A stretch of 64,000 nt of DNA, from the NCBI GenBank assembly GCA_036405175.1, contig DASWYC010000002.1, positions 187,429 to 251,428 on the forward strand, read 5' to 3'. Positions 21,701 through 62,082 of this stretch are shown here, piece after piece. The first letter of the stretch is position 1, and each line of letters begins with the position of its first letter. The notes under the pieces were generated by a model. It saw nothing but the letters and a program-made list of their open reading frames with translations, was not told the DNA's origin and did not search any database. A program made the position numbers and the translations under genes. This DNA comes from Minisyncoccota bacterium. GTDB taxonomy: Bacteria; Patescibacteriota; Minisyncoccia; Phycocordibacterales; UBA1006.

Positions 21701-22278
21701 CTTCTGCTATGCTTGCTCTTTTAGGAAGCTCTGCAACATGGTTGAGTAGGAGCCGCGATACGATGCTTCTGCCGCTTATGGGTATGCATTATTTGATGAG
21801 TAGGGCGACCGAGAATAACCAGCCGCTTCCTATTCCGCAAGGTTTATCGCTTCCATATGTGCCAAATCCTGAAGATCCAGATGATTTTCTAAAATCTGTA
21901 GATGAATCTAGACGAAATGGGCATGTGAGAAGTAAGCACGTCAAAAATAGTAGAAGTAATCTACTGCAGGAGCTTGAGAGTAATCCAAATTCTGATGGAG
22001 CAACAAGCTTTCGCTCAAGTAAGACTGCTGAGCAAGCTATTAAGAATGGTCTAAATAATAATCAAAGTCATATCAATAACTTTTTGAATAACGAAAGGGT
22101 GGGTGAAAGAACATTTATTGATTATAATACAGGCAATAGTATTGGGTATGGATACACAAAGTTGGCTACAGGAGAAATAATTAAAGTAAATTCAATTAAA
22201 GTAGTTAGAATTGTGATAGAAAAAATGTCGAGAGCGAATTATAAGATAATTACAAGTTTTCCAAAAGCTGGAATATAG
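15715..22278 (+). CDS. Giant secreted polymorphic toxin, Tc-toxin TcB/TcC-like. From N to C it has a SpvB-type domain, an FG-GAP-like beta-propeller, YD/RHS repeats with a Cys-rich insertion, an RHS repeat-associated core ending in DPDGN, and a variable C-terminal toxin domain
   Basis: 2187 aa. There is an N-terminal signal/TM segment (FLLLFFTINPFVSIVSAAEIG). The SpvB signature is SSGAFVDAYDFNLPKGPGGIIPPLALSYDSRRRNYDGSFGIGFTLDIPTISRI. FG-GAP-like repeats include DIDGDGQQDIY, DINNDGAVDGY, DINNDGIIEYI, DVNGDNQKDILIGG and DYNGDGLLEI. Many YD repeats are present (YTYD.., YVYDRNGNL.., YTYDARGNLL). The RHS core reads TDHLGTVQVIAN...ARYYDPATGSFISQDP...NAYGYARGNPVMHNDPDGN, followed by a 205-aa unique tail. 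Confidence 0.9.
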   Translation: MIACRYNMNSHKVTFAAVLPTVSYKVFQRLLTYFLLLFFTINPFVSIVSAAEIGHNPQVSSYDTVVDGIGQSPNTSVTTPSGALPLNTPVAPLSSSAQVEISSGAFVDAYDFNLPKGPGGIIPPLALSYDSRRRNYDGSFGIGFTLDIPTISRINKFGIDRMYEDSSFSSSIHGELVKLSKEQDAYGVYGVKNGYGRYIFNRDNSWSYINKEGVTYVFGAKSTEREFISTDDTKISQWNLSTITDPYKHTYRYVYDKVSEKLFPIAILYPNDIYKVDIGWNRAPQTTLTYENGYGQGVGSRRATQVTLSALGVMYRTHAFTFNPSTLRLEKITDSVLGDTVFTYTDIENPRNAVVVEKPLWNVTQHRVDIDGDGQQDIYRVEANTTPTKRTLTIGTTVYQNMPQFDGFADINNDGAVDGYSTDGCYRTYQGNGVFSAAICNLGLIVGDKMIFEDINNDGIIEYITAAQGHLKVYTFKDGKYTLNPSMKAVGGTMWDDLTNSYMATFDVNGDNQKDILIGGDAYLNRGVFFEFSNNYQVDTSNRYYFPNAGKLEYQYILTPVDYNGDGLLEIKIDENWKEQCSSSGTGWCAKVNTQKFLNSGHGWIAVNVDYWNNFTSFTQEKVPLITKVADARLETDVVYGLEDIAKSNILGSIKKVIVVKSITSPYSQTNYSYTNGKYYFNQKEQTSEFAGFETVVATDGLGRKSISYFHQGNDTNTAKGEFEDSRYKIGRTFRQEFYGATGTLLKTITTKWIQADLGSERYLVVPEYTSQLIDGVGTAVGYTYDTAVGELVRQYNFGDATVNTDGSFTDVGIDLVITKYHYKTNGALVVRDEEQRERNGEQLFHGRYTYNPALTQLVKEEVSEMPGSFASRTFSYTSDGSLSSSTDFMGNTTTYTYDSYKFLPKTITNALGHITTLEYNYVVQKPIKVVTPDAITSTYVYDLLGNELEYYRNGVKERVASVSNNFKDYTYSQTLNTSTSIPASDTYVQKVVNHDGLMRPVYERDTDGNHIATTYDQYGRVAEKTIPYTGMLTDSKKIRFTYDDLDRVITQTTVDGVTRYAYNGRTVTITSPSDTIKMMEYDSAGNLIAATEGGFTTRYTYNGNNNLVKLVDQEGNIKEQSFNLLGRKLMTTDLRKSIAADYGRYYFVYDRNGNLTQEIKPGNVTVLHTYDTLGRSKTTTSGEDTITYTYDTCMPGKLCSETRGAYYSKTYTYTPKGQIKTVTEKIHDKTSIVQYEYMGAGDLVTKITYPGNIIITYEYQKDKLVQIKKNGTSLLSSVQYDFGRLKQLQFANGLKTVNAYNENNLYRLSQRVTTNSGNTKLQDIGYTYNSLGMIASLVDSSDTPTKKSVTYVYDDVQRLLTVTYTISSDTTTENFTYSPSGNLLSSPRGTMTYGETVSPQQMNMEVIVPEEEQAQSSQQASENPPIIHPENPESPIMPTVPSGNSNGRNDEVSYRHSKWNPGGLLKATIAYAEEVKVGEESGRNDQEIALDLDQEPESSLQNQTLQEKALSTCGEDGVLIADCVISQQQADPIECLPPGILASGRCLMPESWTNSETSCPPASERCSAIVNVNCLENEVPTDGGCARKVTAMLASDSVDSDPLTLDQLVDRLRGKLITIYQTGSGMLMTLINGESGETGVRIRNDIAGKVVMPRDAQTIAVSFEKALSVVPTITITPQGPITGTPYITSVSTTGFTINVTSPVLQDVIFHYYAFGIPESELQTVGTIPQPTTPTEPSETECPLGFEKDAQQNCIPEVDTSDPVEVVHPHAVTSQEKDGSVTSYTYDARGNLLNDGTYTYVWSNLNELMSSQDTNTTVRYNYSPSHDKIYEEEVSGDTGSPMINKTYFFSSLINRNGMIEIALPYGIVLKNGTPIYTFTDHLGTVQVIANQAGVATDVFDTYAYGDERVKTGTTDAKYALHEYDNNLIYMKARYYDPATGSFISQDPTVLLAPEQYIGDPLQLNAYGYARGNPVMHNDPDGNQAVAAMVIAPALESSAMLALLGSSATWLSRSRDTMLLPLMGMHYLMSRATENNQPLPIPQGLSLPYVPNPEDPDDFLKSVDESRRNGHVRSKHVKNSRSNLLQELESNPNSDGATSFRSSKTAEQAIKNGLNNNQSHINNFLNNERVGERTFIDYNTGNSIGYGYTKLATGEIIKVNSIKVVRIVIEKMSRANYKIITSFPKAGI

Positions 22279-22699: not shown

Positions 22700-22713
22700 A
22701 CTAGCCAAATTTG

Positions 22714-23322
22714 ATGAAAGGTGTACACTACAAGAGTATGAAGAAATACACCAATATCATCATTCTTTTAAGTATTATCATAATTGGACTTGTAGTTTAT
22801 ATTATCGCTAATAACCGTAAGAGCGTTGACGTTGACACCATGACCACATCGGAGGAAATGGTAACAACGCCCGTTGGTGAACAATCCACCACTACTACGT
22901 CTTCAACACCGGTAAAAAAGACTACAACCTCAACACCTAAGAAGACAACCACCGCAACAACGTCTCCAACACCATCAATTAACAAGACATTGTTGGAGAA
23001 TAATCCCTACGTACCATACGGATTCTATATCCAAACACCAACCGGGTATCGTTTGCGACCTTCAACTGATTCTGTAACCGGAAACGTAACGGTTGGATAT
23101 CCAGATGGAGTAATTATGTATGTTAAAGATGCCGCTAAGTATGAGCAATCAACCGTTGTTCCAAAGTATAAATATCTAGGAACAACTAAGGTTGGAGGAA
23201 ATACCTTTAAGACCTATACCTACGGAACCATGACCTACTACTGGATCACTGATGGCAATGAAGGATACGAAATCATTACCACCAAAAAAGATTCATTAAG
23301 TACGTTTGAGATTTTAGAATAA
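22714..23322 (+). CDS. Membrane-anchored protein with a Thr/Ser/Pro-rich (mucin-like) linker and a beta-rich C-terminal domain
   Basis: The N-terminal TM is IIILLSIIIIGLVVYII, then TTPVGEQSTTTTSSTPVKKTTTSTPKKTTTATTSPTPS, then a roughly 110-aa Tyr/Gly/Thr-rich domain. The track start at 22711 is TTG, and an ATG lies at 22714. Confidence 0.5.
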   Translation: MKGVHYKSMKKYTNIIILLSIIIIGLVVYIIANNRKSVDVDTMTTSEEMVTTPVGEQSTTTTSSTPVKKTTTSTPKKTTTATTSPTPSINKTLLENNPYVPYGFYIQTPTGYRLRPSTDSVTGNVTVGYPDGVIMYVKDAAKYEQSTVVPKYKYLGTTKVGGNTFKTYTYGTMTYYWITDGNEGYEIITTKKDSLSTFEILE

Positions 23323-23429: not shown

Positions 23430-24029
23430 ATGCAGCTGATTAATATATTTCATAATCAAGTCTTTGCTCAGGCTATGATTGTATTGATATTTCTCCTTAT
23501 AGTAGCCGTATGGTCTTACTTTGGAAATATTGATAAAACAAGCCCTGGGTACATCGCTAAACAAATTAAAAAACAGGATAAGCGGAATATTCGATATATA
23601 AAAGATATCCTAAAAGGTCACTACATAAAACTAACCAAGGAGCAAATAGCTCAATTTATCGAAAAGTATTCCGTATGGGTCCAACAAGAAAAACAGCTTG
23701 TATCAACAACTTCTAAAGAGCGATTATTCAGACAAGGACAATATCGCAATGAATTTAAAGTTAGTTTTATGTTTCTTGATGAATTATTGCCCGAAGAAGA
23801 GTCTCCGTTCAAGCTTGCCTTTAAAGATGCATTTACTGAACCATTTCCTTCAACTCATGATATGGACGATTGGGCATTTGTAAATAAAGTAACAGATATT
23901 CTTGCTTTGAAAGGATATAACCCTCGGGAAGAACGCCTTGTTGCTTTGGTACACAAAAAAGAACATTTTGTGAATCATGATATTACAACGGGAATCATTA
24001 TTTTTGATATCTACCTTCTTGAAGAATAA
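23430..24029 (+). CDS. Hypothetical membrane-anchored protein (199 aa)
   Basis: N-terminal TM (FAQAMIVLIFLLIVAVWSYF). I recognise no family. Confidence 0.45.
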   Translation: MQLINIFHNQVFAQAMIVLIFLLIVAVWSYFGNIDKTSPGYIAKQIKKQDKRNIRYIKDILKGHYIKLTKEQIAQFIEKYSVWVQQEKQLVSTTSKERLFRQGQYRNEFKVSFMFLDELLPEEESPFKLAFKDAFTEPFPSTHDMDDWAFVNKVTDILALKGYNPREERLVALVHKKEHFVNHDITTGIIIFDIYLLEE

Positions 24030-27289: not shown

Positions 27290-28252
27290 ATGAAAAATTT
27301 AATTTTCCTAATTGCTTTCTTTGTAAGCACTACAACTTTTGCCCAATATTATTCTGAGACAGCCCCAGACTTTATTACAGTCAAAGGGTCCGCAAGATTT
27401 GGAGATGGCTGGGGTAACTCAAGCTCATTTGGTAAGAAGAGTTTCGCCGCAGGCCTCAACAATACCGTAACTGGTGAAAATTCAATTGCGTGCGGTGTTG
27501 GATTAAATATTCGAACACCTAATCAGGTTGTTCTGGGTACGTATAACATTGCTTACGGCAGTAGCACAAGTGGTACAACTGGCACAGACCCGTTAGTAAT
27601 AATAGGGAATGGCGTTGCCTCATGGGCACCAAGTAATGCCATGGTTATATTGCGGAATGGCAATATCGGTATTGGACCACATACTTGGCCACCAACAGCG
27701 CAATTACACATAGCTTACGACGAGTATAAGAATCCAGATGAAGCTGCCTTCAGAGCTGATGGAAGTACATACAGTACTACTATACATGATGATATGTATG
27801 AAGACGTCAACATCAATGGTGGTAACGATTACTCATTTGTGAACCTCGCCCGACCTGCTGGTCAAAGGGTTGGCATTGGTGCTAATCCCGATAACGGACC
27901 TGAAAAACTTTATGTTAAAGGTCATATGAAGGTCACCGGTTATGTTGGGTCAACCGAAGGGTTTTATATCTATAATACTGAACCCACAACAGGCTCTTTG
28001 GTACCAAATCAAAAAAGTTTCCTACAGAGACTAAATGAGATGGCGGTTGTATCTTATAAGAAAGATTCAGTAGTTGTTAAGCAATATCTCAGTATTAATC
28101 CAGCTGAAACATCAATTGTTAGCAGTGTTGGCAAAACTGAAAAGGCGAAGGACTATATACAAGTAGTAAACACTCTTGTTGGCGCGGTTAAGGAACTTGC
28201 CGAAGGGAACAAGCTACTTAAAGCAGAAATTGAAAAATTAAAAAAGAAGTAA
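27290..28252 (+). CDS. Secreted fibre-like protein with a YadA-head-like/tail-fibre-like repeat region and a C-terminal domain like the endosialidase chaperone (peptidase S74) with a coiled coil
   Basis: The signal peptide is MKNLIFLIAFFVSTTTFAQ. Degenerate S.A.G..N.A.G..S repeats (KKSFAAGLNNTVTGENSIACGVGLN) are present. NAMVILRNGNIGIGP...AQLHIA resembles tail-fibre collar segments. The C-terminus (LNEMAVVSYKKD...LVGAVKELAEGNKLLKAEIEKLKKK) resembles the S74 intramolecular chaperone domain. Confidence 0.5.
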   Translation: MKNLIFLIAFFVSTTTFAQYYSETAPDFITVKGSARFGDGWGNSSSFGKKSFAAGLNNTVTGENSIACGVGLNIRTPNQVVLGTYNIAYGSSTSGTTGTDPLVIIGNGVASWAPSNAMVILRNGNIGIGPHTWPPTAQLHIAYDEYKNPDEAAFRADGSTYSTTIHDDMYEDVNINGGNDYSFVNLARPAGQRVGIGANPDNGPEKLYVKGHMKVTGYVGSTEGFYIYNTEPTTGSLVPNQKSFLQRLNEMAVVSYKKDSVVVKQYLSINPAETSIVSSVGKTEKAKDYIQVVNTLVGAVKELAEGNKLLKAEIEKLKKK

Positions 28253-28394: not shown

Positions 28395-30035
28395 ATGAAA
28401 AAACAACTATTGTTCGCATTACTGTGCACTCTCTCTGTAAGTGCTTTTGCTCAATTTGAAGCATGTCCAGGTCTCATTTGGACAAAGGGTGCCGTTAAAA
28501 TTGGTGCAGAACCTAATTACTATCCTTTGCCAAAAGAGGGAGAATTGCTGCAAGTTCGTGGTAGTGGATACGTAACAGACGACCTCACCGCAACGAGAAT
28601 CTATTCTCAAATGAGTGATAGAGGTGTTCCTGTTAGTAGCCCCTATCCTTCGTTAAATAAAGTATTGAGAATAGGTGTTTTATCAAGTATTGAATTTGGT
28701 AAACTCGTAACTCGACTTAATGGGGCAGATTTAGAAAGAGAATTTCCTAATGGTGTTACTGAAAGGAAGACAGTTGGGAAGTTTTTTAACTACGATGAGA
28801 TGAACGCAGCAGTGATTAACTCAATCCAAGCACTTTATGAAAAGGTTGTTAATCTGGAAGCAGAGAACACAGCTCTTAAATCAAGGGTTGCTAAACTTGA
28901 AAAACAAAATGACCCTTGTCTTAAAGTTACTGCGCGTATTAGTGAGAGTGCTGATAATCCTACATCAAAGACTCTTATTGCCAATAGGTCCACTGCTTCC
29001 TCTGCAATGCTTATTCATGCATTTACTATTAAACCCAAGGATGGAGATGCTGTATTAAAAAACATTCCTGTAAAAATTACCCTTGCCGAAGTGATGGGTG
29101 GAACTCAAACCATCAATTCTTCAGAAGGCTTCGGAGCGTTATTTAATGCAATGGTTGAGTCTGTCTGGGTCGAAGTAAATGGTCACTTTGCTACTGAAGC
29201 TATTGCCTCGATCTCGCACACTTCGACCACAGGTCAAGTTTCAGATGTGGAAGTTAATAGTATTAACTTTGATATCAATGGTAATATAACCATTCCAAAC
29301 GGATCAACCGCTGTGGTTAAAGTTTATGTAAGACTGGCACCAATGCCTGATAATGGAGGCGCTATGAATGCTAACTCAGGAGTAACGATCTCTTCGTCGG
29401 TAAATGGAGACTCAATAGTTCTTGGAACCCCTAATTGCGATGCTATCCCGCCATTCTCAATAACAGGATCATCGACGGGTTATACCCATACTATTCGCAC
29501 CGCGGGTGTTATCTCCGTTATGGGTACTGCCTCCATAGAACCCACTAAGTATATCGAGACAGGCAAAACAAAGTATGTGGTATATACGATTCCGATAACA
29601 CTTACGGCTGTCAGTAAGACTTTCTATGTGGGACAATCGGCTGAATGGGCTACTCGTTCAGGTTCAGGTACTGCTGCTGTTGCATTTGCACTTCAATCAG
29701 CATCTGCGCCCAGTACGGATATAACCAGTCTGGATGAATGCGCTATTACAAATGGGTCAGGTTCTTCAGGGGCAGTTGGGTATATATTTTCGTCACCGCA
29801 GGCCCCTGTGCAAAATCTCGGATATCGTATCGATGAAGGCGTATCGAGAACTTTCATACTCCAGGTGGTGGTAAGTCCGGGTTCAGGTCCTGAAATTCAG
29901 AATGAAGCTCTTCGTGTAGCGCTTAAATCTATTAAATATTACACGAACGATTCGCTTTCGGCTGGTGAGACAATAGATATTGTTCGCATTGTTGAAAATA
30001 ATAGGACTGACTTTGAGCTATATATTGTCAACTAA
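28395..30035 (+). CDS. Secreted protein with an N-terminal segment like the endosialidase chaperone, a coiled coil, and a roughly 350-aa beta-rich C-terminal domain
   Basis: The signal peptide is MKKQLLFALLCTLSVSAFAQ. SDRGVPV...LEREFPNGV...GKFFNYDEMNAAVINSIQALYEKVVNLEAENTALKSRVAKLEKQ parallels the S74 chaperone consensus (GFIAQEV..VFPELV...VNY..L.P.L.EAIKEL...LKA.LEKL). A long Ser/Thr/Gly/Val-rich domain follows. Confidence 0.5.
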   Translation: MKKQLLFALLCTLSVSAFAQFEACPGLIWTKGAVKIGAEPNYYPLPKEGELLQVRGSGYVTDDLTATRIYSQMSDRGVPVSSPYPSLNKVLRIGVLSSIEFGKLVTRLNGADLEREFPNGVTERKTVGKFFNYDEMNAAVINSIQALYEKVVNLEAENTALKSRVAKLEKQNDPCLKVTARISESADNPTSKTLIANRSTASSAMLIHAFTIKPKDGDAVLKNIPVKITLAEVMGGTQTINSSEGFGALFNAMVESVWVEVNGHFATEAIASISHTSTTGQVSDVEVNSINFDINGNITIPNGSTAVVKVYVRLAPMPDNGGAMNANSGVTISSSVNGDSIVLGTPNCDAIPPFSITGSSTGYTHTIRTAGVISVMGTASIEPTKYIETGKTKYVVYTIPITLTAVSKTFYVGQSAEWATRSGSGTAAVAFALQSASAPSTDITSLDECAITNGSGSSGAVGYIFSSPQAPVQNLGYRIDEGVSRTFILQVVVSPGSGPEIQNEALRVALKSIKYYTNDSLSAGETIDIVRIVENNRTDFELYIVN

Positions 30036-49819: not shown

Positions 49820-51616
49820 ATGTCTCAAGCCTCTGAAACAAAAACTAATACTATTTTAAGAACTTTAGGTAAAATAAATAAAATTGCTATTCAGGAGTAT
49901 CCTTGGTTTCTGTTTGGAATCCTGATACTAACTCTTGTGCTATCTGCAGCACCATATATGTTCTCATTTGTACAAGGAATATTTGTTGATCGCCTTGTAG
50001 ACTACGTAAACCTTGGGTCCAATACTCTTAAAAGTATTTATACAATTCTTGGTGTTTTTGTAGGCGTTTATTTGATTCAAGAAATTATTGGAGTATTTTT
50101 AAGTTTTATTGATCGTAGATTTGGTGTAAAAATTGATGGAACGACCTCACTACTGCTTCTTAAAAAGAAGGGAGAACTTAGTGTTGCTGATTACGATAAC
50201 AGTGAAATTTGGTCGAGTGTCACCAAAGCAACAGAAGCCCAAGGTTCAATCCGGGCAACTATTTATGCACAAAATCAAATCCTTAAACAGATTATCAGCT
50301 TGGTGATCGGAGCAGTGATTGTGGCTCGATTTTCAGGTCTTTCTCTTCTTATTGCACTCCTTGCATCTGCTCCTTCTGCAATTATTAGTTTTCTTGAGAA
50401 TAATGCAGATTGGAAGCGTTGGCTTCAGGATACAACCATGAGAAAACATATTAACTATATTTATGGACTTTTCGGCACAGAGAGAACGCTTGCTGAGATG
50501 AAATTTTTTCAAGTTGGATCTAAGTTAACTTCAAAATGGGATACAGAGCGAAAAGAGCATATTGAGAAGAAGATTTTTGCTATCCAAAACAGATTTGCCC
50601 CTCTCTTCAGTCTTGCATCTGTTTTTTCTGCACTCGGATATATGGCAATTTTTTACATCCTTACCCAACAGGGGATTAAAGGAGAAATTTCTATAGGAGA
50701 TATTATCTTTTATATCTCAAGTATTTTTGGTTTGAGTAATGCGTTCTCAGGACTTCTTTCAAGTATTGGAATGAACTATCAAAACGTTCTTAAGCTTAAA
50801 GAATATGTTGACTTTCTTGAAATAAAGCCGTCAATGGTTGATGGGACAAACTCTCCAGTTCAGCTCATTCATCCACCTTTGATGACAATTAAAGATTTAT
50901 ATTTTGGATATCAAGATAAAAAAGTACTCAAAGGAGTTTCGGCAATAATTAAACCGGGAGAAAAGATTGCAATTGTTGGTTTAAATGGAGCAGGAAAGAC
51001 AACACTCATTAAAATGATCACCAAGGTATACAACCCAGATTCAGGTTCAATTAAAATTAATGAACATGATCTTGAAGATCTTGCATCATCGTGGTGGTAT
51101 GGACATTTAGGTGTGCTCTCTCAAGAATATACTAATTACAGTTTTACGGTTGAAGAATCTATTGCAGTGGGAAGCAATGATCCTATGAACGAAGATCGCG
51201 TGATTGAATCTGCAAAGCTTGCTCAGATTCATGACACGATTATGGAATTGCCACTTGGATACAAAACACAGCTCGGGCGTCAATTTAAAGATGGACATAA
51301 CTTCTCAATTGGACAGTGGCAGAAGTTAGCAATTGCGCGTGCGCTCTACCGCAAGCCAAAAGTACTCATTTTGGATGAACCAACCTCAGCCGTTGATGCA
51401 GAGGCAGAAGAAGCTATCTTTAATAACCTTCATGATCTTTCAAAAGAAACCACGCTTATCTTCGTCTCACACAGATTCTCAACGATTCGTCGTGCAGACC
51501 GCATTCTCTTGGTATCTGATGGGAAAATCAGTGAACAGGGAGCCCACGAGGATCTCATGAAGATGAAGGGTGAATATTCGCGACTCTTTACTCTTCAGGC
51601 TAAGTCGTATCAATAA
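49820..51616 (+). CDS. ABC transporter permease/ATP-binding protein (type I exporter half-transporter)
   Basis: 598 aa. A 6-TM domain, then an NBD with Walker A GLNGAGKTT, the Q-loop, the signature-like FSIGQWQKLAIARAL and Walker B ILILDEPTSAVD. Confidence 0.9.
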   Translation: MSQASETKTNTILRTLGKINKIAIQEYPWFLFGILILTLVLSAAPYMFSFVQGIFVDRLVDYVNLGSNTLKSIYTILGVFVGVYLIQEIIGVFLSFIDRRFGVKIDGTTSLLLLKKKGELSVADYDNSEIWSSVTKATEAQGSIRATIYAQNQILKQIISLVIGAVIVARFSGLSLLIALLASAPSAIISFLENNADWKRWLQDTTMRKHINYIYGLFGTERTLAEMKFFQVGSKLTSKWDTERKEHIEKKIFAIQNRFAPLFSLASVFSALGYMAIFYILTQQGIKGEISIGDIIFYISSIFGLSNAFSGLLSSIGMNYQNVLKLKEYVDFLEIKPSMVDGTNSPVQLIHPPLMTIKDLYFGYQDKKVLKGVSAIIKPGEKIAIVGLNGAGKTTLIKMITKVYNPDSGSIKINEHDLEDLASSWWYGHLGVLSQEYTNYSFTVEESIAVGSNDPMNEDRVIESAKLAQIHDTIMELPLGYKTQLGRQFKDGHNFSIGQWQKLAIARALYRKPKVLILDEPTSAVDAEAEEAIFNNLHDLSKETTLIFVSHRFSTIRRADRILLVSDGKISEQGAHEDLMKMKGEYSRLFTLQAKSYQ

Positions 51617-51685: not shown

Positions 51686-53512
51686 ATGGAAAAATTGAAT
51701 AATATCGACCTCTACAAACAGATTATTGGCTTCGCAAAGCCTTTCAAAAAGCCCTTCATATGGGTGTTCACCTGCATTGCTATTGCAAATGCTGCAAGCG
51801 CTCTTGCGGCTTGGTGTTTCAGTAAGATATTTAATATCATACAAGAACATCGGACAGATAAGGAATATCTCTATGTCAGCTTAGGTCTTACGGTAGTATC
51901 AGGAGTATTCTTCTTGATAAGAATACTTGTAACAACTAAGCAAGGAAAGATTGAAGTAAAGTATTTGGATTATCTAATTCAGAATTATTTAAATCATGCA
52001 TCGGTCGCCAAATTCTTTTCTTTTTCAGGAGGTCAGCACTTGAACGAACATTCAGGAGTTAAACAAAGTATCGTAAATAATGGAGTATCGTCATTAAAGT
52101 CTCAAATTGAAGAACTTATCTACGACCTTACTCCCAATGCATTACGATTTCTCATGGCGCTATTCCTACTAATGTATGCAAACTTATTGGTAGGATTATT
52201 GTTTATTATTGTATCTGTGATATTCGGATTAATGATGCATAGATATAATTTAAAGCTTGTGCCTGGAATTCGTAAGCTGCGAGACTACAACATCGTTAGA
52301 TCCCGCTTTACCTCTGAACTGTTTAGGTTTGTTGGTCTTGTTAAAAGTGAAAGTCAAGAAAAACGTTCGCTCACAGAACTCAATGGGGTACAATCAACCG
52401 GTCAAGAAATTTATGCAGAAACTTGGAATCCAGCCATCGATAGGATGAGGGTCATACGGTTTATCGTAACAAGTTTGCGCTATGGACTTATTGCTCTTGG
52501 GGTTTATTTATTTTTTGATAATAAGCTTGGGGCAGGCGATTTATTCTTAATCTTTACATGGTCAACCACCTTTATTGACAGCTTGTGGGAGTTTACTGAT
52601 TTTCATAAAAGATTTCTGCTTGATAAGATAAATATTGAGAAATACTTTCAGATACTAAATGTTAAGCCTGATATTCTTATTGTTGAGAATCCAATAAAAA
52701 TTCCCAATCTAAAAGGGGTTATTGAGTTTAAAGATGTTACTTTTGGTTATCCTAGACGAAAAGATTCTCATGAAAGTATCGAAAACGATGAAGAACCTTT
52801 TCAAAATGTTCTTCATAAAATATCTTTTAAGATATATCCTGGAGAAAAAATAGGAATTGTGGGGGAATCAGGTTCAGGAAAGTCAACTTTGGGATCATTA
52901 ATATTGAGAAGTTTTGATCCTCAAGAAGGCCAAATATTCATTGATGGTAATGACTTGCGTTTACTTGATCTTGGTCTATATCTTAAACAAGTAGGCGTTG
53001 TTCCTCAGCAGGTAGATCTTCTCGACCGTTCCATTAAAGATAATATTCTTTTTGGACTGAACGAAGGGGCAGAAATACTCTCAGATGAACAACTCAAAGA
53101 AATTGCAGAAATGGCTGGCATTAACGGTTTCTTTTCTCGATTAGAACATGGATTTGATACACTTGCTGGTGAACGTGGTATAAAGCTTTCTGGCGGAGAA
53201 CGTCAAAGGATTGGAATCGCTCGAGCTTTAGCAAAGAATCCTCAAATTATGATTTTTGATGAAGCAACATCTGCGCTGGATACAGTAAATGAAAAGATTG
53301 TTCAAGACGCAATAAATAGGGCATGTAAAGATAAAACAGCTCTGATTATTGCTCATCGCTTATCTACGGTTAAAAGTTGTGACAAAATTATGGTCTTTAG
53401 GGCTGGATATCTTGTTGATATTGGCTCTCACGAAGATTTATTAAAAAGATGTGACTATTACTCTGAGCTTGTTGCTCATCAAATCGAGCAAGTTACATTT
53501 AGTTTAAATTAA
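51686..53512 (+). CDS. ABC transporter permease/ATP-binding protein (type I exporter half-transporter), likely the heterodimer partner of the upstream gene
   Basis: 608 aa. A TMD plus an NBD with Walker A GESGSGKST, the signature LSGGERQRIGIARAL and Walker B MIFDEATSALD. Confidence 0.9.
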   Translation: MEKLNNIDLYKQIIGFAKPFKKPFIWVFTCIAIANAASALAAWCFSKIFNIIQEHRTDKEYLYVSLGLTVVSGVFFLIRILVTTKQGKIEVKYLDYLIQNYLNHASVAKFFSFSGGQHLNEHSGVKQSIVNNGVSSLKSQIEELIYDLTPNALRFLMALFLLMYANLLVGLLFIIVSVIFGLMMHRYNLKLVPGIRKLRDYNIVRSRFTSELFRFVGLVKSESQEKRSLTELNGVQSTGQEIYAETWNPAIDRMRVIRFIVTSLRYGLIALGVYLFFDNKLGAGDLFLIFTWSTTFIDSLWEFTDFHKRFLLDKINIEKYFQILNVKPDILIVENPIKIPNLKGVIEFKDVTFGYPRRKDSHESIENDEEPFQNVLHKISFKIYPGEKIGIVGESGSGKSTLGSLILRSFDPQEGQIFIDGNDLRLLDLGLYLKQVGVVPQQVDLLDRSIKDNILFGLNEGAEILSDEQLKEIAEMAGINGFFSRLEHGFDTLAGERGIKLSGGERQRIGIARALAKNPQIMIFDEATSALDTVNEKIVQDAINRACKDKTALIIAHRLSTVKSCDKIMVFRAGYLVDIGSHEDLLKRCDYYSELVAHQIEQVTFSLN

Positions 53513-58287: not shown

Positions 58288-58301
58288 GGTATACTGTATT
58301 C

Positions 58302-58673
58302 ATGAATAGAATCCTTCTTTGGATTGTTGAACACATCAGTACTTTTGTGGCATATGCTCAACAGCAAACCCCGGCTGCAGGGCCAATCTTAAATATTCCT
58401 AAGTTTGAAAATCCACTTGCAAAGGCTGGTATTAATGACCTTCCATCATTTATTGAAACTATTCTTAAATTTGTTGTTGATCTTGGAACACCGCTCATTG
58501 CTATTGCATTTATCTGGACAGGGCTCCAGTATGTATTGGCGCAAGGAAATCCTGAGAAGCTTAAGAATGCTCACCGTGCCGCAAAGTATACATTTATTGG
58601 AGCAATACTTATTTTGGGAGCCTTTGTGGTAACGAAGGTAATCTCTGCAACGATTGGAGAAGTTATTGATTAA
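58302..58673 (+). CDS. Small secreted two-helix membrane protein, T4SS pilin-like (VirB2/TrbC-like, PF18895-like); array member 1
   Basis: 123 aa. A signal peptide ending FVAYAQ, then two hydrophobic helices separated by a short W/basic loop (LIAIAFIWTGLQYVLAQGNPEK...FIGAILILGAFVVTKVI). GGGTATACT sits 6 nt before the ATG. Confidence 0.6.
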   Translation: MNRILLWIVEHISTFVAYAQQQTPAAGPILNIPKFENPLAKAGINDLPSFIETILKFVVDLGTPLIAIAFIWTGLQYVLAQGNPEKLKNAHRAAKYTFIGAILILGAFVVTKVISATIGEVID

Positions 58674-58682
58674 AATATTTTT

Positions 58683-59042
58683 ATGAACATCATTTCATTT
58701 ATCTCAACGTATTTTTCACCAGCAATTATTGCTGAAGCTGCATGTACCAGCCCATCATGTGTTGGCTCATTTGGTACTTTCGTTGAATATGTAATTTATC
58801 TGATTAGTAAGGTAGCTATTCCAGTTTTACTTACTGCTGCGGTTGTTGTATTTTTCTACGGTATTATTAGAACCTATATTTGGGAAACTGACCCGGCAAC
58901 AATTAATAAAAATAAATTTTATGTAGCATGGGGTCTTGGAGGAATCTTTGTGATGCTTGCTATCTGGGGAATCATTAATGTGATCTCAAGCAGCATTGGT
59001 ATTGGAATTGGTGGGGATATCGTTATTCCACAGTTTAAATAA
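58683..59042 (+). CDS. T4SS pilin-like small membrane protein; array member 2
   Basis: 119 aa. A signal-like N-terminus (AIIAEAA), helix 1 IPVLLTAAVVVFFYGIIRTYIWE, then helix 2 WGLGGIFVMLAIWGIINVISSSIGIGIGG. It is a close paralog of member 3. Confidence 0.6.
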   Translation: MNIISFISTYFSPAIIAEAACTSPSCVGSFGTFVEYVIYLISKVAIPVLLTAAVVVFFYGIIRTYIWETDPATINKNKFYVAWGLGGIFVMLAIWGIINVISSSIGIGIGGDIVIPQFK

Positions 59043-59115
59043 CTTGATGAAGTTTGTAGGTGTATACTTAAGGGGTATCAGTTAATCATTACGGATATCA
59101 ATTAATTTTTTTATT

Positions 59116-59496
59116 ATGAAGACATTACAGAAATACGGAGTATCCCTCATGTCATTGGTGTGGATAGTTCCTTCATTTGCATACGCACAGGTTATTCCTG
59201 GTGGACGTTCTCTTTGGGATATCGCAGGTGAATACATTAAGTACATCACCAACAACCTTATTCCAATCTTGGTGACGATTGCAGTGATCGTACTCATTGT
59301 TAACATCATCCGCTACATTCTCTGGAACAACAAAGGAGAAATCGAGCACAAGAAGGCTGCATCTCAGCTTGCATGGAGCATCGGAGGACTCTTTATCATC
59401 CTTGCCATCTGGGGAATCATTGCGGTAATCTCTAAGACTCTTGGTATCGGAATTGGAGGAAATCCAATTGATCTTCCTGGAGTTCCATTTCCGTAA
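59116..59496 (+). CDS. T4SS pilin-like small membrane protein; array member 3
   Basis: 126 aa. The signal is ...VPSFAYAQ, helix 1 is IPILVTIAVIVLIVNIIRYILWNNKGE, and helix 2 is WSIGGLFIILAIWGIIAVISKTLGIGIGG. Its own terminator follows. Confidence 0.6.
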   Translation: MKTLQKYGVSLMSLVWIVPSFAYAQVIPGGRSLWDIAGEYIKYITNNLIPILVTIAVIVLIVNIIRYILWNNKGEIEHKKAASQLAWSIGGLFIILAIWGIIAVISKTLGIGIGGNPIDLPGVPFP

Positions 59497-59515
59497 GAGA
59501 TTTTCACTCCTTATT

Positions 59516-59540
59516 AAAAACAGCATTCGTGCTGTTTTTA
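59516..59540 (+). terminator. Intrinsic terminator inside the pilin-like array
   Basis: aaaaacagca-ttcg-tgctgttttt. Confidence 0.7.
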
Positions 59541-59592
59541 ATTTTCCACGTGTATCATTTTTGATACAACGTACACGGTATACTGTATCTAT

Positions 59593-59805
59593 ATGTTAAT
59601 CAACACAGTACTTTTGCACGGATTTCCTATTGCAGTTGGTGTGGTAGTTGCAATTATTATCGCAAGTATCCTTAGATATCACCACGCAAAGAAGAAAAAT
59701 AAAAAAGAAGCTAAAAAGCGTCTCAATAAGCGAATCGGTTGGTATATTGCAACCTTGCTCGCTATTGGTATTTTGTGGATGCTTATGATTATAGGCACTC
59801 GATAA
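59593..59805 (+). CDS. Small two-TM membrane protein with a basic loop; array member 4, divergent
   Basis: 70 aa. Two hydrophobic helices flank the basic loop RYHHAKKKNKKEAKKRLNKR. CGGTATACT sits 8 nt before the ATG. Confidence 0.5.
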   Translation: MLINTVLLHGFPIAVGVVVAIIIASILRYHHAKKKNKKEAKKRLNKRIGWYIATLLAIGILWMLMIIGTR

Positions 59806-59892
59806 TCAAAAAACAACTTATAAACATTGGCATCAACGCCGGTGTTTTTGTATACACAAATAATTAGTGAATAGGTGCGCTATACTATGTAC

Positions 59893-60282
59893 ATGAATCT
59901 CATAGAACTCATATCGATCATCACTCCTACTGCAGAAGCAGCAACTGCTGTTGAAACAGCGAACAAAGCCATATCAAAATTATTTACCGCGATTATTAAT
60001 CCAGTCATTAAGCTTGCATTCGTAGTAGGTATTTTCTTCTTCTTTTATACAATTATCCGTCGTGTATTGTGGGAACGAGGAAAGACCGATGAGTTTGGTT
60101 GGAAAGAAGGGCGCGGAGGTGTCATGGTATGGGGAATCCTCGGACTCTTTATTATGATTGCCGCTGCAGGAATCATTGGAACCATGAAAACTGGAATTCT
60201 TAAATTTGGTAAAGCAACAACCGGAGGAGGAAATACTACGACTCCAGTAGCTCCTGAACCAGATTTTACGCTTCCTAATTAG
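59893..60282 (+). CDS. T4SS pilin-like small membrane protein; array member 5
   Basis: The signal is ...TPTAEAATA. Helix 1 is AFVVGIFFFFYTIIRRVLWERGK and helix 2 is VWGILGLFIMIAAAGIIGTM, then a Gly/Thr tail. The track start at 59875 is GTG. An ATG at 59893 sits 7 nt after TATACT (59881-59886). Confidence 0.55.
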   Translation: MNLIELISIITPTAEAATAVETANKAISKLFTAIINPVIKLAFVVGIFFFFYTIIRRVLWERGKTDEFGWKEGRGGVMVWGILGLFIMIAAAGIIGTMKTGILKFGKATTGGGNTTTPVAPEPDFTLPN

Positions 60283-60310
60283 ACCTTATTTGATGGTATA
60301 CTAACCATGT

Positions 60311-60574
60311 ATGCTCTTTGACCTTATCTTGCAATCACCAGAATTTTTCAACGGTGCGTTCAATTTTTTTGTAGGCTATATTTTATTGCCAATCGTTGGT
60401 GTGCTTGCAGGGTTTTCATTTATTATATTTCTCTACGGATACGTTAAAAGCGTCCACCTGGGAGATTATTACAGTAAAGGTGAAGACGAAGGCAAAGAAC
60501 TTATGGGGAAGGGCCTCCTGTTCATGGCGCTCTGTGCAGGAATTTTTATCATTTCATATTACTTTCTTGTGTAA
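60311..60574 (+). CDS. Small two-TM membrane protein; array member 6
   Basis: 87 aa. Two hydrophobic helices around an acidic loop (GDYYSKGEDEGKE). TGGTATACT (60294-60302) lies upstream. Confidence 0.5.
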   Translation: MLFDLILQSPEFFNGAFNFFVGYILLPIVGVLAGFSFIIFLYGYVKSVHLGDYYSKGEDEGKELMGKGLLFMALCAGIFIISYYFLV

Positions 60575-60580
60575 CCCTGT

Positions 60581-61381
60581 ATGAAAAAGCCAATGTATCG
60601 TGATTTGCTGGTTATTGTTGGACTGGTGGCTATTGTTGCCGGATCACTTATTATTTACAAAAAGAAATCACCGCTCAGCGTTGCTGTATGTGATGAAAAT
60701 ACCTATCTTATCTCAGAAAAGAAGGTTACCTTTAATGAGAAAACTGATACTTATGAAATTGAGGTTGATTTACCATTGCCTCAATCATCTGAACTTGAAA
60801 CATTTATTAGAAAAGTTGCCAATGAACGCATTGATGGATTTAGAAAAGGAATTACTCAACCATCAGAAGGAGATATTACCAATGGATCAGGAAATCCTTC
60901 ACAACAAATTCTTAAAGGAGAGCTTTCTACCTCAACCTCGTTCGTAAATTACCAACTCCTTAACTATGTATATACTGGTGGAGCTCACGGCATGCCACTT
61001 ACCGAAACATTTGTATTCTCACGTGCTAATCCAACCAAGACCATTGAATTTGGAGATCTTTTTACCGCATCAGAACAATTTATTCCGATAGTCACATCGG
61101 TAGTTATTCCAAAGATTCTTGAGCAATACCGTGATATCTATATGGAATCAACAGTATATACTCCAGAAGAACTCACCAATGCACTCACGCAAGGCACCGA
61201 ATGGTCTGAATATTTTAAGAATTTTATTCTTACCGATGAAGGTATCACATTTATCTTTAGCGCATACTCAATTGCACCATATTCAGAAGGAGAGCCAGAA
61301 ATTACTGTCCCATGGAGTGCCGTCGATTCAATCCTTACCGAAGAAATGCACGAGCTTCTTAAAGTGTGTGCAAAAAAGTAA
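60581..61381 (+). CDS. DUF3298/DUF4163 (RsiV/PdaC-like) domain membrane-anchored protein
   Basis: An N-terminal TM (LLVIVGLVAIVAGSLIIY), then YVYTGGAHGMPL, which matches the DUF3298 YxGGAHG signature. Confidence 0.6.
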   Translation: MKKPMYRDLLVIVGLVAIVAGSLIIYKKKSPLSVAVCDENTYLISEKKVTFNEKTDTYEIEVDLPLPQSSELETFIRKVANERIDGFRKGITQPSEGDITNGSGNPSQQILKGELSTSTSFVNYQLLNYVYTGGAHGMPLTETFVFSRANPTKTIEFGDLFTASEQFIPIVTSVVIPKILEQYRDIYMESTVYTPEELTNALTQGTEWSEYFKNFILTDEGITFIFSAYSIAPYSEGEPEITVPWSAVDSILTEEMHELLKVCAKK

Positions 61382-61505: not shown

Positions 61506-61533
61506 AAAGACTCTCTTAACGAGAGTCTTTTTT
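61506..61533. terminator. Bidirectional terminator with the same stem as the terminator at 53521
   Basis: aaagactctc-ttaac-gagagtctttttt. Confidence 0.75.
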
Positions 61534-62082
61534 AATACGAGCGATTTCTTGCTGAAGTTCTTCAAGGAGTGACTCAATCTTGTTAATACTGTCAGGTTCT
61601 TTTTGCGTGGATGATGTAGGTGTTTCTTCTTCGTCTAAGTCTTCTTGAATATCACCAATATCTTCCTGGATCTCGTCAATGTCATGAGCAACTTCATCCA
61701 TATCTTCTTGAATGTCTTCAATATCATCATGAATCTCATCAACATCCTTTTGGATTTCATCAATGTCTTGGGCCACCTCATCGATATCTTTCTGGATATC
61801 TTCAAGATCATCTGATACTTCACTAATATCTTCAGACACCGTGGTAAGTTGTTCCTCTGCACGATTTACTGACATTTGAATAAAAATAGAAAGATAGATA
61901 GCTTCGAGCGACACGATGGTTGTAAGAATAAGGAGAACTTTATTAGTATCAAAACCCAAGAGAATCAACACCATAAAGGTAACAAAAATAATAGTATGCA
62001 AAAGGAGCGATATTGATGACCCGATAAATCGAGTAGATTTTTGTGAGATTTCTTCGATTTTTTTGAGTAGACGCTCCTTCAT
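61516..62082 (-). CDS. DUF1003-family membrane protein with a C-terminal acidic heptad-repeat tail
   Basis: The N-terminus (FIGSSISLLLHTIIFVTFMVLILLGFD...LLILTTIVSLEAIYLSIFIQMSVNRAEEQ) matches the DUF1003 core (...LS..AA.QAP.I.MSQNRQ). About nine D[ILM]xE[IV]xx heptads follow (DIDEIQK, DVDEIHD, DIEDIQE, DMDEVAH...). Confidence 0.65.
   Translation of the reverse strand: MKERLLKKIEEISQKSTRFIGSSISLLLHTIIFVTFMVLILLGFDTNKVLLILTTIVSLEAIYLSIFIQMSVNRAEEQLTTVSEDISEVSDDLEDIQKDIDEVAQDIDEIQKDVDEIHDDIEDIQEDMDEVAHDIDEIQEDIGDIQEDLDEEETPTSSTQKEPDSINKIESLLEELQQEIARIKKDSR
61575..61860. repeat. Imperfect 21-bp tandem repeats inside the DUF1003 gene, encoding acidic heptads
   Basis: Units of the form atcttc(t/c)tg(a/g)at(a/c)tc(a/g)tc(a/c)at recur in the DNA, consistent with the protein-level heptads. 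Confidence 0.6.

What the first reader, a model, noticed from the sequence alone, without database searches (positions are those of the whole stretch)
58302..60574. Tandem array of six small two-helix membrane proteins resembling VirB2/TrbC-type T4SS pilins, each with a GGTATACT promoter box
There are six consecutive ORFs of 70-135 aa. Four of them share the same build: a cleavable signal peptide (ending AYAQ or AEAA), a first hydrophobic helix ending in I(I/V)R.(Y/V)(I/L)WE, a short charged loop, a second Gly-rich helix (WG(I/L)GG(L/I)F...LAIWGII.VI) and a variable tail. Members 2 and 3 are clear paralogs, for example LAIWGIINVISSSIGIGIGG against LAIWGIIAVISKTLGIGIGG. This matches the fold and size of conjugative or T4SS pilins (TrbC/VirB2). 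It also matches the pilin-like family reported from Patescibacteria (PF18895-like), where multi-copy arrays occur. No VirB4, VirB6 or VirD4 gene is in the window. TATACT boxes preceded by GG sit 6-8 nt before the starts of members 1, 4 and 6 and before parB, suggesting co-regulated leaderless transcripts. An array of divergent pilin paralogs in an episymbiont suggests antigenic or host-range variation of a surface filament. Alternatively these could be class II bacteriocin-like or holin-like peptides.
Basis: partly seen in the sequence, partly recalled or inferred. Interest (0 to 1): 0.8.

Follow-up and report, generated by a model that had tools for sequence, protein, structure and literature searches.

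The report
Six-gene VirB2-like pilin array
Six neighbouring small membrane-protein genes in a Paceibacterota (CPR) genome belong to the VirB2-like "T4SS pilin" gene arrays already described in these ultrasmall bacteria, so this is a real but ordinary new example of a known feature.

Summary
The six ORFs exist as described. All are conserved, purifying-selected genes (dN/dS 0.02-0.10; m4 not computable, dS saturated). Member 1 passes Pfam's cut-off for PF18895 (T4SS_pilin). Members 2 and 3 hit it below cut-off. Members 4, 5 and 6 join the family only through paralogy and profile comparison. Homologous arrays occur in all 13 related MAG loci fetched, where 44 of 53 members hit PF18895 and 41 of 53 hit a Mycoplasma-ICE pilin-like family.

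The pilin reading holds, but it is published. Quinonero-Coronel et al. 2025 report 441 such arrays, and Wang et al. 2023 found an essential pilin series in Southlakia.

The GGTATACT box is this genome's general leaderless -10 element, not an array signal. Antigenic variation is not supported: the paralogs are ancient, keep a fixed order across classes, and the array is identical in six samples. Bacteriocin and holin readings have no support.

No T4SS gene lies within about 58 kb upstream or 10 kb downstream. Whether the genome encodes VirB4 could not be tested. The pilus itself remains an inference.

Verdict: new member of a known kind, low interest.

The parts
58302..58673 (+). m1: 123-aa pilin precursor. 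Leader ends AYA|Q, followed by a two-helix hairpin with a QGNPEKL loop.
   Evidence: PF18895 37 bits (cut-off 26.6) and TrbC 26.0 bits (cut-off 27.9). NCBI already names it 'pilin', HEY1041369.1. AF2 gives helices 47-79 and 84-122 at pLDDT about 80. It has a reciprocal best hit in all 15 related loci.
58683..59042 (+). m2: 119-aa pilin paralogue. Leader ends AEA|A, the mature N-terminus has a CxxxxC pair, and the tail carries GIGIGG. It starts 9 nt after m1 with no promoter box of its own, so it is probably co-transcribed with m1.
   Evidence: PF18895 18.1 bits, below cut-off. 46% identical to m3, E 1e-22. 88% identical orthologue, dN/dS 0.07.
59116..59496 (+). m3: 126-aa pilin paralogue with the most canonical Sec leader (MKTLQKYG...FAYA|Q).
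   Evidence: PF18895 25.5 bits, just under cut-off. AF2 gives a signal helix plus a hairpin at 33-72 and 78-109. 94% identical orthologue.
59593..59805 (+). m4: 70-aa two-helix protein without a signal peptide and with a very basic loop (KKKNKKEAKKRLNKR). It is a lineage-specific, divergent pilin-like paralogue.
   Evidence: No Pfam hit. BLASTP to m3 E 1e-7. hhalign to the family core gives 88% probability, E 3e-6, in register. Orthologue found only in the sister species, 74% identical.
59893..60282 (+). m5: 129-aa pilin paralogue. Leader ends AEA|A and the C-terminal tail is long and rich in Gly, Thr and Pro. The ORF could formally start at GTG 59875.
   Evidence: No Pfam pilin hit. BLASTP to m2 E 4e-11. 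Its reciprocal best hit is the last gene of the array in five distant loci.
60311..60574 (+). m6: 87-aa two-helix protein without a signal peptide, a divergent pilin-like paralogue. A PdaC/DUF3298 gene starts 6 nt after its stop.
   Evidence: No Pfam or NCBIfam hit. hhalign to the family core gives 94% probability, E 2e-7. Orthologues in L007 (92% identical) and L011, dN/dS 0.02.
58290..58295 (+). TATACT -10 box, 6 nt before the m1 ATG (leaderless start).
59063..59068 (+). TATACT box (TGTATACT), 47 nt before the m3 ATG. Possible internal promoter with a leader.
59513..59542 (+). Intrinsic terminator hairpin after m3 (AAAAACAGCA-UUCG-UGCUGUUUUU).
   Evidence: Within the 64-nt fold of 59497-59560: -15.6 kcal/mol, z -5.7, 0 of 200 shuffles as stable.
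59579..59584 (+). TATACT -10 box, 8 nt before the m4 ATG.
59822..59847 (+). Terminator-like hairpin followed by a U run, after m4.
   Evidence: -12.9 kcal/mol, z -3.6.
59881..59886 (+). TATACT -10 box, 6 nt before the m5 ATG at 59893.
60297..60302 (+). TATACT -10 box (TGGTATACT, extended -10 form), 8 nt before the m6 ATG.

Best explanation
The six genes encode members of the Patescibacteria 'T4SS_pilin' family (PF18895). These are small alpha-helical hairpin membrane proteins distantly related to TrbC/VirB2 conjugative pilins and to the pilin-like protein of Mycoplasma ICEs.

Shown:
- All six are conserved, purifying-selected genes of one family.
- Four (m1, m2, m3, m5) carry an N-terminal hydrophobic leader ending in a conserved AxA motif, followed by two hydrophobic helices joined by a short charged loop.
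- Two (m4, m6) are shorter, leader-less, lineage-specific versions.
- The paralogues are ancient and keep a fixed order (m1-like, m2-like, m3-like, m5-like) from Paceibacteria to Saccharimonadia.
- They are transcribed as several units from this genome's usual TATACT leaderless promoters.

Inferred:
- The precursors are inserted by Sec or YidC and cut by signal peptidase I.
- This leaves N-out/C-out hairpins pooled in the cytoplasmic membrane.
- A VirB4-driven, monoderm-type (MPF-FATA-like) T4SS encoded elsewhere in the genome extracts them and assembles them into a pilus-like or conduit structure at the host interface.
- The paralogues act together as non-redundant, specialised subunits, comparable to major and minor pilins, not as interchangeable antigenic variants.
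For: - Family membership: (m1 above the PF18895 cut-off; m3 and m2 below it). (44 of 53 members of homologous arrays hit PF18895, 17 hit TrbC, best E 1.5e-8). (41 of 53 hit NF045849, the Mycoplasma ICE pilin-like family, best E 9e-11). (local jackhmmer over 1298 ORFs gave 78 hits, all inside contiguous arrays, including all six window genes). (hhalign for m4 and m6).
- Fold: (leader helix plus helical hairpin, pLDDT 70-84 in the hairpin).
- Real genes.
- Ancient ordered paralogues.
- Link to a T4SS in a relative: in L023 (Saccharimonadales) six pilin genes sit about 7 kb from a VirB4 gene and are divergently transcribed from it.
- Literature: the pilin series inside the Southlakia T4SS cluster is essential (PMC10633639), which PMC12857230 describes as six VirB2-like pilins; 441 arrays were found in 383 assemblies, and a Patescibacteria-clade VirB4 in 2,407 of 3,035 assemblies (PMC12102498).
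- Family size: 12,804 representative clusters at E <= 1e-3.
Against: - No T4SS gene was found in the 58 kb of the window upstream or the 10 kb downstream of the array.
- VirB4 in this genome could not be checked.
- Only m1 passes a curated cut-off. m4 to m6 rest on profile and paralogy evidence, in hydrophobic sequence where scores are inflated.
- Structure searches returned only generic helical hairpins and no solved pilin.
- None of the papers read here reports an observed T4SS pilus in any Patescibacterium, so 'pilin' is itself an inference.
- In 11 of the 13 related MAG loci fetched the array follows gyrA, a methyltransferase and a solute-binding protein, not T4SS genes.
Confidence: 0.7

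Rival explanations
1. Variation array. The paralogues are interchangeable versions of one pilus subunit, kept to vary the surface antigenically or to switch host range.
For: The paralogues are highly divergent, about 15-46% identical. Several have their own promoter and terminator, which would allow differential expression. Bartonella and Anaplasma offer precedents, cited in PMC12102498.
Against: Each paralogue has its own orthologue in the same position across classes. dN/dS is 0.02-0.10, no higher than in neighbouring housekeeping genes. There are no long identical repeats that could drive conversion. The array is 100% identical over 2,460 bp in six samples. The Southlakia pilin series is reported as essential (PMC10633639), which argues against redundancy.
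Confidence: 0.1
2. Non-filament membrane assembly. The hairpins form a fixed-stoichiometry hetero-oligomeric ring, stalk or channel in the membrane. It could be part of the T4SS translocon or independent of it, possibly tied to solute uptake, and it would not be an extended pilus.
For: The ordered paralogue set is conserved. The array sits in housekeeping neighbourhoods away from virB4, and in 11 of 13 related loci directly after a membrane-anchored SBP_bac_8 protein. Many library relatives are single polypeptides with 2-8 tandem pilin domains and one leader, which would hold the hairpins side by side. None of the papers read here reports an observed pilus.
Against: Homology points to TrbC/VirB2 and to ICE pilin-like proteins. 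Arrays lie next to VirB4 in Saccharimonadales and in 1,135 of 1,948 assemblies (PMC12102498). VirB2 homologues are not known to act without a T4SS.
Confidence: 0.18
3. Class II bacteriocin-like or holin-like peptides.
For: They are small, hydrophobic, glycine-rich and occur in tandem.
Against: The leaders end in AxA, not GG. The nearby ABC transporters show no C39 peptidase domain. PHROGs gives no holin hit and there is no phage context. Family-level hits go to pilin families. The genes have been conserved as chromosomal genes across classes.
Confidence: 0.02

Closest known systems
Patescibacteria VirB2-like pilin arrays (PF18895): the pilin series of Ca. Southlakia epibionticum ML1 (six per PMC12857230), the 'Sec-secreted array' of Ca. 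Nanosynbacter lyticus TM7x, and the 441 arrays catalogued by Quinonero-Coronel et al. 2025
   Same: Same protein family and the same tandem layout of 2-11 divergent paralogues. Identity here is about 15-46%, against a published mean of 25% and maximum of 54%. Both have Sec-type leaders and a chromosomal location in a CPR genome.
   Different: Here the array is not in or near a T4SS cluster but lies between hisS and a PdaC/DUF3298 gene. Two members lack a leader and are invisible to Pfam. By the paper's criteria (i-E < 0.001, coverage > 50%) only m1 and m3 would be counted. The organism is a Paceibacterota MAG, while arrays were reported as most abundant in Microgenomatia and Saccharimonadia.
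TrbC/VirB2 conjugative pilins (PF04956), for example Agrobacterium VirB2 and RP4 TrbC
   Same: Small size, a leader peptide, two hydrophobic helices and a short charged loop. m1 scores 26.0 bits on PF04956, and 17 of 53 array relatives hit it.
   Different: m1 is below the curated cut-off of 27.9. There is no detectable sequence match to any solved pilin. The host is a monoderm with no outer-membrane T4SS core. Cyclisation and pilus formation are unknown.
Mbov_0395 / MMCAP2_0565 pilin-like conjugal transfer protein of Mycoplasma ICEs (NCBIfam NF045849)
   Same: It is the best NCBIfam hit for m1 to m4 and for 41 of 53 array relatives (best E 9e-11). It comes from a monoderm MPF-FATA-type T4SS, the class to which Patescibacteria VirB4 is phylogenetically closest (PMC12102498).
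   Different: All window members score below the 40-bit cut-off (15-25 bits). The ICE protein is a single copy inside a mobile conjugation module, not a chromosomal array.
VirB2 paralogue arrays of Bartonella (Trw) and Anaplasma
   Same: Tandem amplification of divergent VirB2-like genes.
   Different: Those arrays are thought to serve antigenic or host-receptor variation. Here the paralogues are ancient, positionally orthologous and under purifying selection.

Membership tests
PF18895 T4SS_pilin (Patescibacteria VirB2-like pilins) | Score at or above Pfam's gathering threshold (26.6 bits) | tested here: met
   m1 scores 37.0 bits. m3 (25.5) and m2 (18.1) fall below, and m4, m5 and m6 have no hit. 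For those five, membership rests on paralogy and profile evidence only.
PF18895 T4SS_pilin (Patescibacteria VirB2-like pilins) | Leader peptide followed by a two-helix hydrophobic hairpin with a short polar loop | tested here: met
   Hydropathy and AF2 models of m1 and m3 agree. The AxA site is conserved in orthologues. m4 and m6 have the hairpin but no leader. No dedicated signal-peptide predictor was available.
PF18895 T4SS_pilin (Patescibacteria VirB2-like pilins) | Tandem array of divergent paralogues | tested here: met
   Six genes here. Arrays of 2-6 genes occur in all 15 related loci.
PF18895 T4SS_pilin (Patescibacteria VirB2-like pilins) | Genomic association with virB4 or other T4SS genes (within about 20 genes) | tested here: not met
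   None within 58 kb upstream or 10 kb downstream. This is not a strict family requirement: 813 of the 1,948 VirB4-containing assemblies with pilins do not have the pilin gene near virB4 (PMC12102498).
PF18895 T4SS_pilin (Patescibacteria VirB2-like pilins) | A VirB4-type T4SS encoded in the same genome | not testable with these tools
   Only 64 kb of the 667,975-bp contig is visible. The VirB4 homologue search listed only Saccharimonadales proteins. The paper's supplement does not list this MAG.
TrbC/VirB2 pilin (PF04956) | Score at or above Pfam's gathering threshold (27.9 bits) | tested here: not met
   m1 scores 26.0 bits, m3 12.0 and m5 7.7. The relationship is distant homology, not membership.
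TrbC/VirB2 pilin (PF04956) | Polymerises into an extracellular T4SS pilus | not testable with these tools
   This needs microscopy or surface-fraction proteomics. Fold searches were uninformative.
NF045849 Mbov_0395 pilin-like conjugal transfer protein | Score at or above the NCBIfam cut-off (40 bits) | tested here: not met
   m1 to m4 score 15-25 bits. The family-level signal is consistent: 41 of 53 relatives at E <= 0.01.
Class II bacteriocin | Double-glycine leader and a C39-peptidase ABC exporter nearby | tested here: not met
   Leaders end in AYA or AEA. The ABC proteins at 49820-51616 and 51686-53512 show only ABC_tran-type ATPase domain matches (ABC_tran, SMC_N, AAA_21) at E <= 1e-5.
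Phage holin | Match to holin families, or a lysis-cassette or prophage context | tested here: not met
   PHROGs gives no holin hit. The neighbours are hisS, relA, parB and a PdaC-like gene.

The most novel reading that the evidence does not exclude
The conserved, ordered set of four core paralogues (m1, m2, m3 and m5 types, plus lineage-specific leader-less extras) is not a homopolymeric conjugative-type pilus. It is a fixed-composition heteromeric assembly of VirB2-like hairpins, a membrane conduit or stalk. It has become a housekeeping organelle uncoupled from the T4SS gene cluster, and in most lineages is genetically coupled to a membrane-anchored solute-binding protein, used to take up host-derived molecules. 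The poly-pilin fusion proteins (2-8 domains in one chain) would be the covalent version of the same assembly.
Probability: 0.2. Interest if true: 0.7.

Novelty: new member of a known kind. Interest (0 to 1): 0.3.

Why it matters
T4SS pilin arrays are among the few envelope features shown to be essential for the epibiotic life of a cultured Patescibacterium, and their function is unknown. This locus adds no new kind of system. It does give three modest pointers:

- Standard HMM criteria recognise only two of the six members, so published array sizes are probably underestimates.
- The paralogues are ancient, positionally orthologous and under purifying selection. This favours a multi-subunit machine over antigenic variation.
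- The family is consistently similar to a Mycoplasma-ICE pilin-like protein. The pilin may therefore have come with the monoderm-type T4SS and need not have been borrowed from diderm systems.

Tried and rejected
- VirB4 in the same genome. I took a VirB4 from L023 and searched the 5.8-billion-protein set, hoping for a hit with longest_contig = 667,975. Only Saccharimonadales VirB4s were listed. The supplement of PMC12102498 contains no HEY1041 or VGE63 identifiers. The MAG itself was not among the GTDB representative loci returned.
- Profile search of PDB sequences with a 53-member alignment returned only non-specific transmembrane matches.
- I first guessed that the conserved ~820-aa gene upstream of arrays in other loci was VirB4. 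Its sequence shows the GyrA motifs, and the ~430-aa gene next to the arrays is a solute-binding protein, not VirB6.
- The sigma-70 consensus scan missed the TATACT boxes because -35 elements are not conserved.
- PHROGs gave no holin.
- The DNA repeat search found only 72-80% identical 50-89-nt stretches in the second-helix coding region.
Full report
**1. Observation**

For m5 the likelier start is ATG 59893 (129 aa).

The quoted leader ends (AYA|Q, AEA|A) and the shared helix motifs are present in m2, m3 and m5. m1 has the same build but different motifs. BLASTP among members gives:
- m2-m3: 46% identity, E 1e-22
- m2-m5: E 4e-11
- m3-m5 and m3-m4: E 1e-7
- m1-m3: E 3e-4
- m6: at best E 1e-4, to m2

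Kyte-Doolittle profiles show two hydrophobic helices in every member, plus an N-terminal hydrophobic leader in m1, m2, m3 and m5.

**2. Are they genes?**

The protein database identifies the source as an NCBI MAG, 'Candidatus Paceibacterota bacterium', on a 667,975-bp contig. m1 is already annotated 'pilin' (HEY1041369.1). m3 is annotated 'hypothetical protein VGE63_01460'.

A sister species (L007, L008, L009) carries the same array between hisS and a PdaC/DUF3298 gene. Its orthologues are 74-94% identical, and the flanking genes are 72-97% identical. Nei-Gojobori dN/dS is 0.09, 0.07, 0.10, 0.07 and 0.02 for m1, m2, m3, m5 and m6. For m4 dS is saturated, with dN 0.14. The neighbours range from 0.02 to 0.13.

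All six are therefore expressed-protein genes under purifying selection. That includes m6, which the gene caller skipped in the Logan assemblies of this organism.

**3. What family?**

Pfam results:
- m1 hits PF18895 (T4SS_pilin) at 37.0 bits, above the 26.6 cut-off, and TrbC/VirB2 PF04956 at 26.0 bits, below the 27.9 cut-off.
- m3 hits PF18895 at 25.5 bits and m2 at 18.1 bits.
- m4, m5 and m6 have no pilin hit.

In NCBIfam, the best hit of m1, m2, m3 and m4 is NF045849, the Mbov_0395 pilin-like conjugal transfer protein of Mycoplasma ICEs. All four score below its cut-off.

A scan of GTDB representative genomes with an m1 alignment returned 13 loci from Paceibacterota, Nomurabacteria, Minisyncoccia and Saccharibacteria MAGs. 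Local jackhmmer over all 1,298 ORFs of these loci plus the window converged from m1, m2, m3 or m5 on the same 77-78 ORFs (78 in all). Every one lies inside a contiguous same-strand array of 2-6 genes, and none lies elsewhere. The set includes m4 and m6.

Of 53 short array members, 44 hit PF18895 and 17 hit TrbC (best E 1.5e-8). 41 hit NF045849 (best E 9e-11). hhalign of the m6 and m4 orthologue groups against the family core gives 94% (E 2e-7) and 88% (E 3e-6), aligned in register over both helices.

A profile of the window proteins and their close relatives finds 12,804 representative clusters at E <= 1e-3 among 1.84 billion. So the six genes are one family, the Patescibacteria VirB2-like pilins. 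m4 and m6 are divergent, leader-less members.

**4. Structure**

The AF2 models have moderate confidence, with mean pLDDT 69 for m1 and 66 for m3 and 70-84 in the core. Each shows a leader helix, then a helical hairpin: 47-79 and 84-122 in m1, 33-72 and 78-109 in m3.

**5. Surroundings**

Thirty-nine of the 49 ORFs of at least 120 aa outside the array were scanned against Pfam. They are housekeeping genes or genes of unknown function: TopA, MurJ, ThrRS, IF-2, ClpB, RpoA, MraY, FtsW, MurG, two ABC ATPases, ParB-like, RelA/SpoT and HisRS. There is also one RHS toxin. None is VirB4, VirB6 or VirD4. The ten not scanned are shorter ORFs (126-481 aa); hydropathy shows no transmembrane segment in any of them. 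The only polytopic proteins of previously unknown identity are MraY-like and FtsW-like. The 10 kb beyond the window also lacks T4SS genes.

In 11 of the 13 more distant loci the array follows gyrA, a methyltransferase and a membrane-anchored SBP_bac_8 protein. In L023 (Saccharimonadales) six pilin genes lie about 7 kb from a 657-aa VirB4 (P-loop_TraG, AAA_10, DUF87) and are divergently transcribed from it. That VirB4 is 80-95% identical to the listed proteins, many of which JGI annotates as VirB4 or TraC.

I could not determine whether this MAG has a VirB4. The literature prior is high: 2,407 of 3,035 Patescibacteria assemblies carry the clade-specific VirB4. Among the 1,948 VirB4-containing assemblies with VirB2-like pilins, the pilin gene is near virB4 in only 1,135 (PMC12102498).

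**6. Promoters**

GGTATACT occurs four times, before m1, m4, m6 and parB. However, TATACT lies 3-12 nt upstream of the ATG of an ORF of at least 70 aa in 11 of its 39 occurrences, against a 3.1% background. For TATAAT the figure is 1 of 44. The TATACT sites include MurJ, ThrRS, ParB and the ORFs at 2548 and 47928.

It is therefore the genome's ordinary -10 box for leaderless mRNAs, often in the extended form TGnTATACT. It is not an array-specific regulatory signal.

Strong hairpin-plus-U terminators follow m3 (z -5.7) and m4 (z -3.6). The likely transcription units are m1-m2(-m3), m4, m5, and m6 with the PdaC-like gene.

**7. Variation or specialisation?**

Reciprocal best hits show positional orthology:
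- The m1 type is found in all 15 loci, at position 1 or 2.
- The m2 type usually lies immediately after the m1 type (a reciprocal best hit in 9 of the 15 loci).
- The m5 type is the last gene in five distant arrays.
- m4 occurs only in the sister species.
- m6 occurs only in the two closest lineages.

The duplications are old. The only DNA similarity is 72-80% over 50-89 nt. The 2,460-bp array is 100% identical in assemblies from six samples. Wang et al. [quoted passage not shown]

All of this favours non-redundant, specialised subunits. It argues against an antigenic-variation cassette, although differential expression cannot be excluded.

**8. Comparison with what is known**

The phenomenon is published:
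- PMC10633639 reports a series of essential predicted pilins in the Southlakia T4SS cluster.
- PMC12102498 reports 441 VirB2 arrays of 2-11 genes in 383 assemblies, with mean identity 25%.

This locus is a new member of that kind. Its particulars are:
- It is detached from any T4SS cluster.
- It contains two leader-less short paralogues that curated HMMs miss.
- Only two of its six genes would pass the published detection criteria.

**9. Verdict**

The pilin-family interpretation is supported. The co-regulation, antigenic-variation and bacteriocin ideas are not. Assembly by a T4SS into a pilus-like structure is the most likely mechanism, but it is inferred and not shown. Novelty is low.

Noticed in passing
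Public protein library: P0133 (333 aa), P0139 (555 aa), P0134 (820 aa): Many relatives are single polypeptides with 2-8 tandem pilin domains ('poly-pilins'). They have one N-terminal leader followed by repeated helix-loop-helix units with linkers of roughly 30 aa. More than half of the 150 best representative hits have at least 2 domains. I did not see this mentioned in the papers read.
   Followed up: partly
L012-L022 (e.g. L012:5401-6690): In 11 of 13 related MAG loci a membrane-anchored solute-binding protein of about 430 aa (SBP_bac_8/SBP_bac_1) lies immediately upstream of the pilin array. It is preceded by a methyltransferase and, in the loci that reach far enough upstream, usually by gyrA. 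The window has no homologue of this protein.
   Followed up: partly
L010:1-2163; also L013:9188-10261 and L014:1863-2969: Some arrays begin with long proteins (over 710, 357 and 368 aa) whose C-terminus is a PF18895 pilin domain. The large N-terminal extracellular part has no Pfam match (scanned for the L010 protein only). These may be adhesin-like pilin fusions.
   Followed up: partly
window 15715-22278 (+): A 2,187-aa RHS/YD-repeat protein with SpvB and FG-GAP domains and a C-terminal CdiA-CT RNase A toxin domain. The small membrane ORFs downstream (22711-23322, 23430-24029) could encode immunity proteins.
   Followed up: no
window-wide, e.g. 2535, 11149, 15069(-), 47912, 53610: TATACT, not TATAAT, is the preferred -10 hexamer placed 6-12 nt before start codons. 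This implies widespread leaderless mRNAs, often with a TGn extension and no recognisable -35.
   Followed up: partly
window 60581-61381 (+): A membrane-anchored PdaC/DUF3298 protein starts 6 nt after m6. The m6-PdaC pairing is conserved in L007 and L011.
   Followed up: no
window 27290-28252 and 28395-30035 (+): Two secreted proteins (320 and 546 aa) with typical signal peptides ending FAQ and no Pfam match.
   Followed up: no
window 61516-62082 (-): A DUF1003-like membrane protein with a highly acidic, repetitive coiled-coil tail (repeats of the form DIDEIQ(K/E)D).
   Followed up: no
A5 members versus NCBIfam NF045849: Patescibacteria pilins are consistently similar (41 of 53, best E 9e-11) to the pilin-like protein of Mycoplasma ICEs. 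This bears on the published statement that monoderm MPF-FATA systems lack VirB2 homologues.
   Followed up: partly
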